Virus record (IMG/VR): IMGVR_UViG_2541047119_000014
Reading direction: 5' to 3' (one strand)
DNA length: 34,950 bases
Source of the DNA: a virus
Taxonomy: Duplodnaviria > Heunggongvirae > Uroviricota > Caudoviricetes
In this document: piece after piece, positions 15,444 to 19,109 of the stretch
How positions within the stretch are numbered: the stretch's first letter is position 1
Layout: every line of letters starts with the position of its first letter
The notes under the pieces: generated by a model
Database searches by the model: none
Told to the model about the DNA's origin: nothing
Seen by the model: only the letters and a program-made list of their open reading frames with translations
Position numbers and translations under genes: made by a program

Positions 15444-17032
15444 TGGGACGCATAATTGATCTTGACGGAAAACCTTTCTCCTTTGACCCGGAGATGCAGA
15501 GTGCCGCGCTGGATATTCCGCAGATTGCCAGCCGTTATATTGAACATCCGGCCTCGGGTATCACCCCGAACCGGGCGGCACAGTGCCTTCGCGGGGCTGA
15601 ACGTGGCGATCTGATTGCCCAGTCCGATCTGGCCGCTGACATTGAAGAAAAGGATACCCACCTTTTTGCAGAGCTGGGCAAGCGACGCCTTGCCATTCAG
15701 GGGGTGCCATGGAGTATTGAGCCGCCCCCGAACGCCAGCGCGAATGAGAAAAAGGACGCGGAAATGCTCGACGAATATCTGCATTCCGCCGACTGGTTTG
15801 ATGCCATGCTGTTTGATGCCACCGATGCTATCCTGAAAGGCTATTCCTGCATGGAGATTGAGCACGGGATGCTCGGTAAAATGCACATCATCCGCGCCAT
15901 CCGCTGGCGTGACAGCGGGCATTTCTGCCTTAACCCGGATGATTTGAGCGAACTGCGGCTGCGTGACGGCAGCCATGCCGGGGTGGCGTTTCAGCCCTTT
16001 GGCTGGATAGTGCATCAGTCACGTTCACGCACCGGTTACGGCGGCGCAACGGGGCTTGTCAGGACGCTTATCTGGCCGTTCATTTTCAAAAACTATTCCG
16101 TGCGCGATCTGGCTGAATTTCTGGAGGTGTACGGCCTGCCGATGAAGGTCGGTAAATACCCGTCCGGGGCAACGCCGGAGCAGAAAAGCGCCCTGATGCG
16201 GGCGGTGATGGATATCGGGCGACGTACAGGCGGGATCATCCCGGCCGGGATGTCTCTGGAGTTTCAGGCAGCCGCGAACGGTCAGGCCGATCCGTTTGAA
16301 ACCATGATTTCGTGGGGGGAGCGTTCCATCTCCAAAGCAATACTCGGCGGCACGCTGACCACGGAAGCCGGAGACAAAGGCGCGCGCTCGCTGGGTGAAG
16401 TGCATAACGAGGTGCGCCGGGAAATCAGGAATTCTGATTTACGTCAGCTGGCCGCCACGCTGAACCGCGATCTGGTGTATCCGCTGTATGCCCTGAACAC
16501 CGCCCACGCCATTGATATCCGTCGCCTGCCGCGTATCTGTTTCCAGACAAAAGAGCCGGGGGATATCACCAAAATCACCAGTGCGGTGATGCAGCTCAGT
16601 ACGGGGATGGATATTCCTGATCCCTGGGTACGGGAGCAGACCGGTATTCCACAGCCTGCCCCCGGTGAAGCCATCTTCCGTGTCCGTCAGAGTGGCAATG
16701 AACCTGCTCAGACAGACAAAGAGATGCCACCGGAAAAACAGGAGAAGACAGAGCAGACAGCGCTGGCTGCCAGACTGCCGGAAGCGAAGAGCAGCCCCCG
16801 AGATGAACTGGACGACATGGGGGATGCGGTGCCTGCCCGCCGGTTACAGGAGGCCATCGACCCGGTACTGGAGCCGGTCATTGAAGCCATCAGAACGCGG
16901 GGGCTGGCGGAGGCACTGGCAGACCTGCCTGCCCTTTACCGTGAAATGGATGATTCCCGCCTGATGACGCTGCTCAGTGATGCCATGTTTGCTGCGGAAA
17001 TGAAGGGGATGCTGGATGGCACAGGGGATTGA
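15434..17032 (+). CDS. Portal protein (Mu gp29-like)
   Basis: 532 aa following the terminase; acidic C-terminus; Mu-like order. Confidence 0.85.
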   Translation: MLVVGRIIDLDGKPFSFDPEMQSAALDIPQIASRYIEHPASGITPNRAAQCLRGAERGDLIAQSDLAADIEEKDTHLFAELGKRRLAIQGVPWSIEPPPNASANEKKDAEMLDEYLHSADWFDAMLFDATDAILKGYSCMEIEHGMLGKMHIIRAIRWRDSGHFCLNPDDLSELRLRDGSHAGVAFQPFGWIVHQSRSRTGYGGATGLVRTLIWPFIFKNYSVRDLAEFLEVYGLPMKVGKYPSGATPEQKSALMRAVMDIGRRTGGIIPAGMSLEFQAAANGQADPFETMISWGERSISKAILGGTLTTEAGDKGARSLGEVHNEVRREIRNSDLRQLAATLNRDLVYPLYALNTAHAIDIRRLPRICFQTKEPGDITKITSAVMQLSTGMDIPDPWVREQTGIPQPAPGEAIFRVRQSGNEPAQTDKEMPPEKQEKTEQTALAARLPEAKSSPRDELDDMGDAVPARRLQEAIDPVLEPVIEAIRTRGLAEALADLPALYREMDDSRLMTLLSDAMFAAEMKGMLDGTGD

Positions 17033-18341
17033 TTTAGGTTATGCCGCCACGCTTCCCTCAAAAGAGGCGGTGGCATACTTCCGCGCCAAAGGGGCGCATA
17101 TCAGCTGGAACTGGTTCGAAACAAACGCAGATGTTCATGCCCGTTCATTCACGGCGGCAAAAGTGGCACGCCTGGACGTACTGACCACACTACAGGCGGA
17201 AGTGCAGCGTGCTGTTGATGAGGGGATTTCACAGAAAGCATTTATCCGCACACTGACACCCCGCCTGCAAAAGCTGGGATGGTGGGGAAAACAGATTGTG
17301 GTGGACAGTGCCGGTAACGCGGAAGAAGTGCAGCTGGGCAGTCCCCGCCGTCTGGCGCTGATTTACAACGTGAACACCCGTGTGGCTTACAATGCCGGGC
17401 GTTACACGCAGATGATGAACAACACGGACACGCATCCGTTCTGGCAGTATGTGGCGGTGATGGACAGCCGCACCCGCCCGGCGCATTCCGCCCTTAACGG
17501 TCTGGTATTCCGCTATGACGATCCGTTCTGGAATACACACTACCCGCCCAATGGCTGGAACTGTCGCTGCCGTGTCCGGCCATTGTCTCAGGCCCGTCTG
17601 GATGCGATGGGGCTGTCTGTTTCATCCGGTCAGGATCATCTCTCCACCCGCAATGTTGAGGCTGGCGTGGATAAGCAGACCGGGGAAGTCAGAGAAATGC
17701 CGGTGACCACATATTCAGATGGCACCAGAACCATGACACCGGATGTGGGCTGGTCATATAACCCCGGTTCGGCGGCGTTCGGCACAGACCAGGCGCTGCT
17801 CCGCAAGTTGATCGAGGTGAAAAGCCCGGAGTTACGGGAAATGGTGGTTCAGGAGATGAACAACAGCCCGGAGCGGCAGCTGGCGTTCCGCATCTGGGCA
17901 AAAAACATCATGAAAACCCGGCGAGGCGGTAACGATATCCGCACGCTGGGCTTTATGACCGAAAGTATTGCGCAGGCGGTGGAAAGCCGGACGGGAACGC
18001 CACCGGCCCGCCTGCTGGCGATGAGCGGTAAAAATGTGCTCCATGCGGACAGCGTGAAACATCAGAATGACGGTATCGCCCTGACGCCGGAGGATTTCGG
18101 GCGATTACCGGCAATGCTGGCCGCGCCTGATGCCGTGCTGTGGGATCATGTCCATCAGAACCTGCTTTACATCACTGAAACCCGTGACGGAACGGCAAAG
18201 ATTGCCGTCAATGCGCCTTATGGTGTGAAGCGCCAGCCGGATAAGCTGGATGTGGTAATTAATGCTTACCGGGTAAATAAATTTGATATTGAAAAAGCAA
18301 TAGAGGGCGGAAAGCTGGAACTACTGGAAGGTAAATTGTAA
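17016..18341 (+). CDS. Head morphogenesis protein (Mu F-like)
   Basis: 441 aa after the portal. Confidence 0.8.
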   Translation: MAQGIDLGYAATLPSKEAVAYFRAKGAHISWNWFETNADVHARSFTAAKVARLDVLTTLQAEVQRAVDEGISQKAFIRTLTPRLQKLGWWGKQIVVDSAGNAEEVQLGSPRRLALIYNVNTRVAYNAGRYTQMMNNTDTHPFWQYVAVMDSRTRPAHSALNGLVFRYDDPFWNTHYPPNGWNCRCRVRPLSQARLDAMGLSVSSGQDHLSTRNVEAGVDKQTGEVREMPVTTYSDGTRTMTPDVGWSYNPGSAAFGTDQALLRKLIEVKSPELREMVVQEMNNSPERQLAFRIWAKNIMKTRRGGNDIRTLGFMTESIAQAVESRTGTPPARLLAMSGKNVLHADSVKHQNDGIALTPEDFGRLPAMLAAPDAVLWDHVHQNLLYITETRDGTAKIAVNAPYGVKRQPDKLDVVINAYRVNKFDIEKAIEGGKLELLEGKL

Positions 18342-18421
18342 GCCGGTGACGGGGGTCGAACCCGCATAAACATATGACCCCTGAGGGTTTATGCCGCTTT
18401 ACCAGTTAAGAGTACACCGGC
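18342..18421 (-). ncRNA. tRNA-like element (perfect 7-bp acceptor-like stem and GGTTCGA T-arm; 5' half non-canonical)
   Basis: Minus strand reads GCCGGTG...GCGGGTTCGACCCCCGT-CACCGGC; no clean D or anticodon arm and no CCA. Confidence 0.3.
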
Positions 18422-18459
18422 CTGTATTTATTTTAATCAGATAGTTTTAAGGAGGCAAC

Positions 18460-18933
18460 ATGTCATCCATCGATGCAGCCGTGGTGGTGGACGTTGCGCG
18501 TCTCCAGCGGGTCTTTGCCCGGCTTCAGTTTGTGGGTGGTGGAAAAGACCTGGCCCGCAGTGTGGCGGCGAGTCTTCTGTCATCGTCAGAAATGGCGTTT
18601 GAACAGGAAAAAGAGCCGGACGGCGAACGCTGGCATGACTGGTCAGATCCTTACCGCAAGTGGCGTACCCGTAAGGGATACATGCCCGGCAAAATCCTGA
18701 CGCTGAACGGCGATCTGGCCCGACGCCTGACCACGGATTATGGCGACACCTGGGCGCTGATTGGATCAAATGAGCCTTATGCGGCCATTCATCAGTGGGG
18801 TGGCCTGCCCGGTATGCCGCCGGGACCGGCGGCCATTGGTGCACGTCCGTATATGGGCTTTGATCAGGTGGCAGAGCAGGAGATCATGGACGAAATCAGA
18901 AAACGCTTTAAAAAGGCCACAGAAACGCCTTAA
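18460..18933 (+). CDS. Virion morphogenesis protein (Mu G-like)
   Basis: 157 aa; position between F and I. Confidence 0.7.
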   Translation: MSSIDAAVVVDVARLQRVFARLQFVGGGKDLARSVAASLLSSSEMAFEQEKEPDGERWHDWSDPYRKWRTRKGYMPGKILTLNGDLARRLTTDYGDTWALIGSNEPYAAIHQWGGLPGMPPGPAAIGARPYMGFDQVAEQEIMDEIRKRFKKATETP

Positions 18934-19109
18934 TTGTTTAAGGTATGCAAATGCATTACCTTACCCCCTTCAGGCGCGTGTCGTGATTTTCTAACCTGTA
19001 TTTAACGGGCTTTAAAATCTGCGTGAAGCGCCTTTGTATTTTTCCCCTGGAAGCACTTCCTGAAATCCCGCAAAACCCGCCCTGAAAATTCCCGGCTTAT
19101 GCTGCCGGA

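What the first reader, a model, noticed from the sequence alone, without database searches (positions are those of the whole stretch)
18342..18421. tRNA-like structured element immediately downstream of the F gene
On the minus strand an 80-nt element starts with GCCGGTG and ends with CACCGGC, a perfect 7-bp acceptor-like stem. It contains a canonical T-arm (GCGGG-TTCGACC-CCCGT) and a D-loop-like GG, but the central part folds as an 8-bp hairpin (gcataaac/gtttatgc) rather than an anticodon arm, and there is no CCA. It is not a canonical tRNA. It could be a degenerate tRNA, a tRNA-like RNA processing signal or a relic integration target. Mu itself has no such element between F and G.
Basis: seen in the sequence. 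Interest (0 to 1): 0.5.

Follow-up and report, generated by a model that had tools for sequence, protein, structure and literature searches.

The report
Anticodon-less tRNA mimic of Mu-like phages
Between two head genes of a Mu-like prophage, on the opposite strand, lies a small RNA gene with its own promoter; its product has the shape of a tRNA but no anticodon and no free acceptor end, it is conserved by selection in many Mu-like phages and in a satellite-like island, and its function is unknown.

Summary
Window 18340-18423 (- strand) scores as a full-length tRNA in Rfam (31.4 bits, cut-off 29). NCBI's pipeline labels this exact spot 'tRNA-OTHER' in many E. coli genomes. ARAGORN finds nothing.

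It is not a relic. I found more than 40 distinct relatives: 28-29 of 80 Mu-like F-G junctions sampled by G homology, plus other contexts.
- 95% of stem positions pair, and 15 of 18 pairs show compensatory changes.
- G·U pairs outnumber A·C 49 to 3, so the selected strand is the one antisense to the late genes.
- The D arm, T arm and variable loop stay 75-95% identical where the adjacent G protein is only 30-58% identical.
- The 'anticodon' arm is always a hairpin of unrelated sequence, mostly capped by 3-4-nt loops such as UUCG.
- The acceptor helix is closed to 9 bp (-1:73 and -2:74 pair), with no CCA.
- A sigma-70 -10 box lies 2-13 nt upstream in 84% of relatives. Some relatives also have a clean terminator.

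Best reading: an independently transcribed, non-decoding tRNA-core mimic carried as an accessory gene. A decoy for a factor that recognises tRNA shape is my leading guess. It is inferred, not shown. I found no prior description.

The parts
18340..18423 (-). tRNA-shaped RNA gene (84 nt, counting the two extra terminal pairs)
   Evidence: Rfam tRNA 31.4 bits. Family model R1 87.1 bits. PGAP 'tRNA-OTHER' at the same place in a 99.3% identical prophage.
18415..18423 (-). 5' strand of the 9-bp terminal helix (A-2, G-1, then G1-G7)
   Evidence: All 9 pairs show changes on both sides across the family, and 96.9% of cells are paired. RNAalifold predicts the same 9 bp on a MAFFT-only alignment.
18340..18348 (-). 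3' strand of the terminal helix (C66-C72, U73, U74). Positions 18340-18341 are also the last two bases of F's TAA stop codon.
18396..18414 (-). U8-A9 plus one extra C, then the D arm (UCUU / AACUGGUA / AAGC) with A14, G18, G19 and A21
   Evidence: Invariant in the first 19 variants. The D stem covaries in the wider set: CG to AU and UA to AU.
18369..18395 (-). Central arm in place of the anticodon arm: GGCAUA/UAUGUU and ACCC/GGGU, capped by a UCAG tetraloop (18381-18384)
   Evidence: The sequence is unrelated between variants (19-50% identity). No variant has a 7-nt anticodon loop.
18366..18368 (-). 'UAU' variable loop, nearly invariant
18349..18365 (-). T arm: GCGGG / UUCGACC / CCCGU
   Evidence: 99% of cells paired, 3 of 5 pairs with compensatory change, G53-C61 invariant.
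18430..18458 (-). Predicted sigma-70 promoter: TTGCCT (18458-18453), 17-nt spacer, TAAAAT (18435-18430). The predicted start is at about A18423, the first base of the helix. The -35 box overlaps G's ribosome-binding site on the other strand.
   Evidence: A -10 box matching at least 5 of 6 lies 2-13 nt upstream in 84% of 37 distinct relatives, against 0-3% at control positions and 10% in shuffles. No transcript data.
17016..18341 (+). Mu F-like head morphogenesis gene (flank, opposite strand)
18460..18933 (+). Mu G-like virion morphogenesis gene (flank, opposite strand)

Best explanation
It is a small, independently transcribed RNA gene. It is an accessory gene of one lineage of Mu-like phages and is also found in at least one satellite-like island. 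Its product copies the core of a tRNA but cannot decode.

Shown by sequence comparison:
- A cloverleaf with a canonical D arm, T arm and variable loop, including the bases that build the tRNA elbow and core (U8, A14, G18, G19, A21, U54-U55-C56, A58, G53-C61).
- The anticodon arm is replaced by a hairpin of free sequence and length, usually closed by a stable 3-4-nt loop.
- The acceptor helix is sealed to 9 bp, with no discriminator tail and no CCA.

Inferred:
- Host RNA polymerase starts at a sigma-70 promoter that points against the late operon, at about the first base of the helix.
- The RNA ends just after the helix. In some relatives this is at a U-run or at a separate terminator.
- A paired triphosphate 5' end and a compact fold would make it stable.
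- The promoter faces the late genes and points the same way as the repressor gene, so the RNA is probably made in lysogens and early in infection, and is shut off by late transcription.

Most likely mode of action (my estimate about 0.3): it acts through its conserved elbow and core as a decoy or competitor for a protein or ribozyme that recognises tRNA by shape rather than by anticodon. Candidates are a tRNA-cleaving immune nuclease or a tRNA-processing enzyme.

The overall confidence given here is for 'selected, separately transcribed, non-decoding tRNA mimic'. The decoy step is a guess.
For: Structure under selection:
- On a MAFFT-only alignment of 19 variants, 87.6% of cells pair, 12 of 22 pairs have compensatory change, and none of 500 shuffles reaches the covariation score. 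Registers slid by 1-3 columns give 41-55% pairing.
- On 41 distinct sequences, 95% of cells pair and 15 of 18 pairs have compensatory change.
- RNAalifold finds the 9-bp helix and the T arm on its own.

Strand: 49 G·U against 3 A·C pairs.

Core conserved, ends free: the core is 75-95% identical where G protein is 30-58% identical. The central arm is about 30% identical even where G is 98% identical.

No anticodon: every variant folds its central arm into a hairpin, capped by a 3-4-nt loop (UUCG, UCCG, UCAG, UCAA, GUAA and others) in all but three, whose loops are 6-10 nt. ARAGORN finds no tRNA in the window or in 14 relatives.

Own transcription unit:
- Promoter in the window.
- Conserved -10 box across contexts.
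- Intrinsic terminator GCCCCG-UUAUU-CGGGGC-UUUGUUGUU directly after the gene in the L161-L167 group, and a U7 run after the helix in L104.

Accessory, mobile gene:
- Present at 28-29 of 80 F-G junctions, all with a spacer of 85-135 nt (340 nt where there are three copies). In the junctions with no spacer, F and G overlap, usually by 4 nt as in Mu.
- Also present as two tandem copies at the end of an integrase/primase/Mor island in E. coli.
- Also present beside candidate defence genes in another Mu-like element and in Rheinheimera chromosomes.

Direction matches the repressor gene.

Background for the decoy idea: phage tRNAs have been proposed as decoys or supplements against Septu, which cuts the variable loop of tRNA-Tyr (PMC13096335). 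Bacterial Schlafen-like nucleases also cut tRNA (PMC13434031).
Against: - There is no transcript, end-mapping or binding data of any kind. The promoter, start point, 3' end and timing are predictions.
- No partner is identified and no tRNA-targeting gene is linked to it.
- In the window the 3' flank is only weakly U-rich and lies inside F, so termination there is uncertain.
- RNase P and 3' trimming plus CCA addition could open the sealed end in the cell. In that case the 'cannot be charged' statement would fail.
- More distant Mu-like phages carry unrelated structured RNAs at the same site and in the same orientation. This hints that position, not tRNA mimicry, may be what matters.
- The rapid turnover of both helices among near-identical prophages is not explained by a simple decoy.
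Confidence: 0.55

Rival explanations
1. Position-dependent regulator. What matters is a head-on promoter and antisense transcript at the F-G junction. It would damp read-through into G and the head genes in lysogens, or tune the F/G ratio by transcriptional interference or by pairing with the late message. The tRNA shape would only be a compact, stable, self-terminating product.
For: - The site and orientation are fixed in all Mu-type contexts.
- The -35 box overlaps G's ribosome-binding site and start codon.
- Distant Mu-like phages with no family-model hit still carry a 100-160-nt F-G spacer holding a - strand unit: a -10 box next to G's start, a GC-rich multi-hairpin RNA closed by a 9-11-bp helix, often followed by a T-run.
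Against: - Family members occur away from F-G: in the satellite-like island, in the L089/L128 cassette and in Rheinheimera chromosomes.
- Interference does not require near-invariant D-loop, T-loop and variable-loop bases over this divergence.
Confidence: 0.2
2. tRNA scaffold carrying a specificity hairpin. The conserved tRNA body only stabilises and presents the hypervariable central hairpin. The hairpin is the effector, for example an immunity or incompatibility determinant, as in the RNase P-processed C4 RNA of P1/P7 and CI RNA of P4 (own knowledge).
For: - The central arm is replaced wholesale between prophages whose G proteins are 98% identical, while its basal pairs are kept.
- The design matches the engineered 'tRNA scaffold' (own knowledge).
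Against: - Within one type the loop drifts among UCAG, UCAA, UCCG and UUCG, so the loop carries no sequence signal. UNCG loops are poor pairing partners.
- There is no complementary target of 11 nt or more in the window, and no outstanding RNA duplex apart from the gene's own complement.
- There is no Rfam C4 hit at E up to 10.
Confidence: 0.15
3. A working but odd tRNA, for example with a short intron or an expanded anticodon loop, that is matured and used in translation.
For: - It passes the Rfam tRNA threshold.
- PGAP calls relatives tRNA-OTHER and, once, tRNA-Tyr.
- ARAGORN calls one copy in L165 tRNA-Lys.
Against: - No variant has a U33-NNN-R37 loop on a 5-bp stem. Most loops are 3-4 nt, and the arm varies in length from 24 to 39 nt with unrelated sequences.
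- No conserved discriminator base, no G3·U70 and no encoded CCA; positions -1:73 and -2:74 pair.
- The 'Tyr' call lacks the long variable arm of bacterial tRNA-Tyr (that feature is own knowledge). The 'Lys' call has C33 and a 6-bp stem.
Confidence: 0.03
4. A decaying tRNA pseudogene, a leftover attachment site, or a structure of the late mRNA (+ strand).
For: It resembles a tRNA without an anticodon. The + strand also folds stably (-30.3 kcal/mol, z = -2.56).
Against: - Compensatory changes in all three stems, a G·U to A·C ratio of 49:3 in favour of the - strand, and its own promoter and terminator.
- These phages carry Mu transposase genes; Mu-type phages insert by transposition rather than at tRNA genes (own knowledge).
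Confidence: 0.04

Closest known systems
Canonical bacterial and phage tRNA (Rfam RF00005)
   Same: Cloverleaf, 7 acceptor pairs, D arm with G18G19, T arm with UUCGA, 3-4-nt variable loop. Scores above the family threshold.
   Different: No anticodon loop. One extra base after A9. The helix is extended by pairs -1:73 and -2:74. No CCA and no conserved identity elements.
C4 RNA of P1/P7 and CI RNA of P4 (Rfam C4 family; own knowledge)
   Same: Small, cloverleaf-like RNAs of temperate phages and satellites. They are non-decoding and resemble tRNA enough to be cut by RNase P.
   Different: Those act by pairing with boxes in their own operon and lie upstream of icd/ant or of the P4 replication genes. 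Here there is no Rfam C4 hit and no target boxes, and the gene lies between head genes.
tRNA-like domain of tmRNA (own knowledge)
   Same: Acceptor/T-arm mimic without an anticodon.
   Different: tmRNA has G3·U70, a CCA end, a tag reading frame and pseudoknots. None is present here, and ARAGORN finds no tmRNA.
Bacterial Y RNA-like YrlA (own knowledge)
   Same: Non-coding RNA with a tRNA elbow mimic, also found in some phages.
   Different: In YrlA the RNA ends lie on the opposite side, in the Rsr-binding stem, and the gene lies next to rsr/rtcB. There is no Rfam hit and no such neighbours here.
Non-charged viral tRNA-like RNAs (murid herpesvirus 4/68 vtRNAs), mascRNA, and 'tRNA-Other' of Bacillus cereus (own knowledge)
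   Same: tRNA-shaped RNAs that are made but not used for decoding. Their functions are partly unknown.
   Different: Different hosts and biogenesis (Pol III or RNase P/Z). Those keep an anticodon-like loop or a free 3' end.
Engineered 'tRNA scaffold' for RNA expression (Ponchon and Dardel; own knowledge)
   Same: The same design: the anticodon arm is replaced by an arbitrary hairpin on an intact tRNA body.
   Different: That one is man-made and keeps a processable acceptor end.

Membership tests
tRNA (RF00005) | Cloverleaf with acceptor, D and T arms that scores above the curated threshold | tested here: met
   31.4 bits against a gathering score of 29, full length. It is missed with default filters.
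tRNA (RF00005) | A 7-nt anticodon loop (U33, anticodon, purine 37) on a 5-bp stem | tested here: not met
   15 nt lie in place of the loop. All variants fold this region into hairpins capped by loops of 3-10 nt, mostly 3-4 nt, with no anticodon-type loop. ARAGORN finds none.
tRNA (RF00005) | A single-stranded discriminator base plus a CCA 3' end (encoded in E. coli tRNA genes) | tested here: not met
   The 3' flank is UUACA. Positions 73 and 74 pair with -1 and -2 and covary. CCA addition after transcription is not testable here.
tRNA (RF00005) | Aminoacylation identity elements | tested here: inconclusive
   Pair 3:70 is CG, UA or GC, never G·U. Pair -1:73 varies (GC 19, AU 14, others) and position 73 is not conserved. 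Charging itself is not testable.
C4/CI antisense RNAs | Match to the Rfam C4 model | tested here: not met
   The only hit over the element at E up to 10 is tRNA.
C4/CI antisense RNAs | Loop sequences complementary to boxes in the controlled operon | tested here: not met
   No match of 11 nt or more in the window, and no standout duplex other than the gene's own complement. Only the window was tested.
tmRNA | tRNA-like domain with G3·U70 plus a tag reading frame | tested here: not met
   ARAGORN finds no tmRNA. There is no G3·U70.
Independent small-RNA gene | Its own promoter | tested here: met
   TTGCCT-17-TAAAAT. A conserved -10 box in 84% of 37 relatives against 0-10% in controls. This is a sequence prediction only.
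Independent small-RNA gene | Its own terminator | tested here: inconclusive
   Clear in the L161-L167 group and in L104. In the window only a weakly U-rich tail follows the helix.
Independent small-RNA gene | A discrete transcript | not testable with these tools
   No expression data were available. Literature searches found none.
Integration-site remnant | A partial tRNA copy at the edge of an element that has a site-specific integrase | tested here: not met
   The element is full-length, lies in the middle of the late operon, and the prophage carries Mu transposase A and B.

The most novel reading that the evidence does not exclude
A family of RNA-only accessory genes of transposable phages and their satellites. 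A sealed, anticodon-less copy of the tRNA core would act as an RNA decoy or inhibitor of a host factor that reads tRNA shape, such as a tRNA-cleaving immune nuclease or RNase P. That would make it an RNA-based counter-defence or host-takeover tool. Its fast-evolving helices would reflect an arms race.
Probability: 0.2. Interest if true: 0.8.

Novelty: new variant of a known kind. Interest (0 to 1): 0.55.

Why it matters
tRNA-shaped non-coding RNAs are known, but a conserved phage family with this design appears to be undescribed. The design is an intact tRNA core, a free-form hairpin in place of the anticodon arm, a sealed acceptor end and its own promoter.
- Rfam has no separate family for it.
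- Annotation pipelines label it 'tRNA-OTHER' and once 'tRNA-Tyr'.
- Full-text searches found no paper on it.

It is present in about 4% of complete E. coli genomes (229 of 5426), including O157:H7 Sakai prophage Sp18, so it is easy to test.

If it acts as a decoy for a tRNA-recognising factor, it would add an RNA-based tool to the interplay between phage and host. If instead its position is what matters, it points to an unrecognised control point in the middle of Mu-type late operons.

There is also a practical point. These genes inflate or distort tRNA counts in prophage annotation.

Tried and rejected
- ARAGORN on the window and on 14 relatives found no tRNA or tmRNA.
- Rfam at gathering thresholds on the window and on 7 relatives found nothing. 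It also found nothing for the unrelated F-G spacer RNAs of distant Mu-like phages.
- A trans target for the central hairpin inside the window was sought with exact words of 9-12 nt and with RNAduplex over both strands. Nothing stood out beyond the gene's own complement.
- Resemblance of the central hairpin to CRISPR repeats was considered because one relative lies beside a type I-E-like array. By eye only a 5-nt word is shared, so I dropped it.
- tRNA-His-like identity (G-1:C73) holds in only about half of the members, so I rejected it as a family feature.
- Family model R1 is not specific below about 50 bits. Ordinary phage tRNAs score 29-50 bits. Low-scoring members were therefore accepted only with the right position and features.
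- Nine literature searches, plus reading six of the papers they turned up, found no description of this RNA and no expression data.
- I did not use the protein homology or structure tools. The question did not depend on them.

Full report
**1. What is in the sequence**

Read on the - strand, window 18421-18341 is GCCGGUG UAC UCUU AACUGGUA AAGC [GGCAUAAACCCUCAGGGGUCAUAUGUU] UAU GCGGG UUCGACC CCCGU CACCGGC U. It fills the 118-nt gap between the stop codon of a Mu F-like gene (17016-18341, +) and the start of a Mu G-like gene (18460-18933, +). It is therefore antisense to both.

- ARAGORN reports no tRNA.
- Rfam with default filters reports nothing in the window.
- Rfam with permissive filters on 18250-18520 gives the tRNA family at 31.4 bits (threshold 29), E 5.5e-5, over the whole model, with 15 nt where the 7-nt anticodon loop belongs.
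- The fold is no more stable than shuffled sequence would suggest (z = -1.72). Stability alone proves nothing.

**2. Where it comes from**

The window is a Mu-like prophage of E. coli, 97.6% identical here to Sp18 of O157:H7 Sakai and 99.3% identical to strain UTME-3.

- The F-G segment matches 229 of 5426 complete E. coli genomes.
- PGAP annotates exactly this 81-nt stretch, on this strand, as 'tRNA-OTHER' in many of them. The older Sakai annotation has nothing there.
- The prophage carries the usual Mu gene set: repressor, transposase A and B, Mor, lysis, terminase, portal, F, G, protease, major head and tail genes. The tRNA-like gene points the same way as the repressor gene and against everything else.
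- In Mu itself F and G overlap by 4 nt and there is no spacer.

**3. It is a family under selection**

E. coli prophages about 88% identical in this region carry at least three versions. They share an identical D arm and T loop. Their acceptor stems differ by compensatory changes (GCCGGUG/CACCGGC, GUCGGUG/CACCGAC, GGUCAGUG/CACUGACC). Their central parts are unrelated.

- Pattern scans of IMG/VR, species-representative genomes and metagenomes raised this to 23 distinct variants.
- On a MAFFT-only alignment of 19 variants, 87.6% of cells pair and 12 of 22 pairs have changes on both sides. None of 500 shuffles reaches the covariation score, and sliding the register drops pairing to 41-55%.
- RNAalifold independently predicts a 9-bp terminal helix and the T arm.
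- A covariance model built from these sequences (R1) was run on 80 loci chosen only by homology to G protein. It finds the element in 28-29 of them, always on the strand opposite to G and ending about 40-50 nt before G's start. This holds down to about 40% G identity.
- On the 41 distinct sequences, 95% of cells pair and 15 of 18 pairs show compensatory change. That includes all nine pairs of the terminal helix and three of four D-stem pairs. This alignment is fitted to the model and so leans towards it, but the MAFFT-only results agree.
- G·U pairs outnumber A·C pairs 49 to 3. The RNA that is selected is the - strand product, not the late mRNA.

**4. Anatomy**

Three features set it apart from a tRNA.

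(a) No anticodon. In every variant the region between the D arm and the variable loop folds into a hairpin of about 7-11 pairs with small internal loops. All but three variants cap it with a 3-4-nt loop (UUCG, UCCG, UCAG, UCAA, UCAU, GUAA, AUU, CAU); L003, L011 and L022 have loops of 6-10 nt. Within one type the loop drifts among UCAG, UCAA, UCCG and UUCG. The loop sequence therefore carries no signal.

(b) Sealed end. Positions -1:73 and -2:74 pair and covary (GC, AU, CG, GU, UA), giving a 9-bp helix. No CCA is encoded.

(c) One extra base (C) follows A9.

Otherwise the tRNA core is canonical: U8, A14, A15/U48, G18, G19, A21, G53-C61, U54-U55-C56 and A58. I regard it as an accident of this variant.

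**5. Conservation pattern**

Compared with the window's copy, the core (D arm, variable loop, T arm) stays 75-95% identical in phages whose G proteins are 30-58% identical. The one exception, L169, is 68% identical. The terminal helix is 28-83% identical. The central arm is at chance level (19-50%), even in a prophage whose G protein is 98% identical. The conserved surface is the elbow and core. Both distal helices are free to change, and they change fast.

**6. Its own transcription unit**

- The window has TTGCCT-17-TAAAAT on the - strand at 18458-18430. The -10 box ends 6 nt before the first base of the helix, and the -35 box overlaps G's ribosome-binding site.
- Across 37 distinct upstream regions, 84% have a -10 hexamer matching at least 5 of 6 (with A2 and T6) that ends 2-13 nt before the helix. 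At control positions the figure is 0-3%, and in shuffles it is 10%. These sequences are related, so this is not a formal probability.
- The box is also present in unrelated genomic contexts with different flanks.
- In the L161-L167 group the gene is followed directly by a clean intrinsic terminator. In L104 a U7 run follows the helix.
- In the window the tail after the helix (UUACAAUUU) is only weakly U-rich and lies inside F's last codons. The 3' end here is uncertain.

**7. Distribution and contexts**

- Loci with the element have an F-G spacer of 85-135 nt, or 340 nt in L165, which holds three tandem copies. In the loci with no spacer, F and G overlap, usually by 4 nt as in Mu, or sit within a few bases of each other.
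- In E. coli 2015C-3121, a 10.5-kb integrative island between yicC and dinD ends with two tandem members scoring 69.5 and 71.5 bits. The island carries an integrase, an HTH regulator, two Icd-like genes, toprim and DUF927 primase genes, PerC and a Mor-family activator.
- In another Mu-related element the gene lies next to a DUF2971 gene that matches defence candidate PDC-S31, near an ATPase matching PDC-S06. In a sister locus it lies next to a different cargo gene.
- In Rheinheimera chromosomes it lies beside a CRISPR array or a P-type ATPase gene.
- It therefore behaves as a mobile accessory gene.

**8. How it probably works**

Shown: a selected, tRNA-core-shaped RNA that lacks what is needed for decoding. 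As encoded, it also lacks what is needed for charging.

Inferred: transcription by host polymerase from a promoter that faces the late operon, so expression in lysogens or early infection and occlusion late. A base-paired triphosphate 5' end and a compact fold should make the RNA long-lived (general knowledge of RppH and RNase E entry).

Only the elbow and core are conserved. I therefore think the RNA most likely works by occupying something that recognises tRNA by shape: a tRNA-cutting defence nuclease or a processing enzyme. tRNA-targeting defences that cut outside the anticodon exist. Septu cuts the variable loop of tRNA-Tyr, and phage tRNAs have been proposed as decoys or supplements (PMC13096335). 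Bacterial Schlafen-like nucleases also cut tRNA (PMC13434031). I put this step at about 0.3.

Rivals:
- A position-dependent antisense or interference regulator. This is favoured by the fixed site and by unrelated structured RNAs at the same site in distant Mu-like phages. It is disfavoured by members found elsewhere and by the conserved tertiary bases.
- A tRNA scaffold that presents a specificity hairpin. This is favoured by the wholesale replacement of the hairpin. It is disfavoured by loop drift and the lack of any target.

A working tRNA, a pseudogene, an attachment-site relic and an mRNA structure are each contradicted by the data above.

**9. Comparison with known systems and novelty**

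It passes the Rfam tRNA threshold but fails two defining features of a tRNA: the anticodon loop and the free NCCA end. I therefore do not file it as a tRNA.

It is not a C4/CI RNA (no model hit, no target boxes). It is not a tmRNA (no G3·U70, no tag). It is not YrlA (different topology and neighbours). In design it is closest to the engineered tRNA scaffold. In kind it is closest to non-charged viral tRNA-like RNAs.

Nine full-text searches, and the six papers I read from their results, found no description of it and no expression data. I rate it a new variant of a known kind, tRNA-mimicking non-coding RNA. The structure and family are well supported; the function is open.

**10. Caveats**

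- Everything about expression is predicted.
- R1 also scores ordinary tRNAs at 29-50 bits. The weakest members (L202, and two of the three L165 copies) rest on position and features.
- Counts of compensatory cells include inherited changes.
- Host names for most IMG/VR loci are unknown.

Noticed in passing
L211 3995-4079 and 4100-4184 (NZ_CP027340.1, about 1065.3-1075.5 kb; L212): A 10.5-kb integrative, satellite-like island between yicC and dinD ends with two tandem members of this RNA family. The island carries an integrase, an HTH regulator, two Icd-like genes, toprim and DUF927 primase genes, PerC and a Mor-family activator. PGAP calls the second copy 'tRNA-Tyr'. It has a UGUACA loop and no long variable arm, and ARAGORN finds nothing, so this is probably a mis-call. 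A Mor gene in a primase/integrase island hints at a satellite of Mu-like phages.
   Followed up: partly
L173, L182, L187, L188/L195/L199/L209, L193 (F-G spacers, about 1000-1200 in each locus): More distant Mu-like phages (G 30-41% identical) have no family-model hit, yet they carry a 100-160-nt F-G spacer with a - strand unit. The unit has a -10 box next to G's start and a GC-rich multi-hairpin RNA closed by a 9-11-bp helix, often followed by a T-run. L173 and L187 fold as four-way junctions. No Rfam match. The site seems to be a conserved niche for small antisense-oriented RNA genes.
   Followed up: partly
L105 about 1-3090 and 3250-3328 (MAG gammaproteobacterium JAHKAA010000052.1). L107 (Rheinheimera soli) has the same element with near-identical immediate flanks; I did not read L107 for the array.: In L105 a family member lies about 150 nt beyond one end of a long type I-E-like CRISPR array (repeat CTGTTCCCCGTAAGCACGGGGCTAAACCG), in a convergent orientation, next to ORFs I guessed to be kefF/kefC-like from their first residues. 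There is no Mu context. Whether the adjacency means anything is unknown.
   Followed up: no
L089 2292-8306; sister loci L050 and L128: A Mu-related element has an odd gene order: Mor directly next to the gpT major head gene. It carries the tRNA-like gene followed by a DUF2971 gene (PADLOC candidate PDC-S31), plus a 786-aa AAA_13 ATPase (PDC-S06, E 2e-180). In L128 the gene after the RNA is instead a 287-aa ORF with a hydrophobic stretch and no PADLOC match. This looks like a cargo hotspot.
   Followed up: partly
L165 827-1134: Three tandem, diverged copies occupy a 340-nt F-G spacer, each preceded by a -10-like hexamer (4-6 of 6 matches). ARAGORN calls one tRNA-Lys(UUU), but it has C33 and a 6-bp stem.
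   Followed up: partly
L029 9779-9850, L032 4342-4414, L051, L052 (non-Mu phage contigs): ARAGORN reports 'tRNA-???' genes in these contigs. In L029 and L032 the anticodon arm is a hairpin with a 3-6-nt loop. tRNA-shaped genes without a proper anticodon loop may be more widespread in phages than this family.
   Followed up: no
window 18934-19109: This is the 176-nt G-I spacer. In Mu the annotated strong gyrase cut site lies 20 nt after G's stop codon. From my own knowledge, Mu's late promoter for I is in that spacer too. The equivalents may lie here. Not examined.
   Followed up: no
L104 7519-7565: A second, partial and degenerate copy of the element lies about 120 nt from the full copy in an uncultured Rheinheimera genome.
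   Followed up: no
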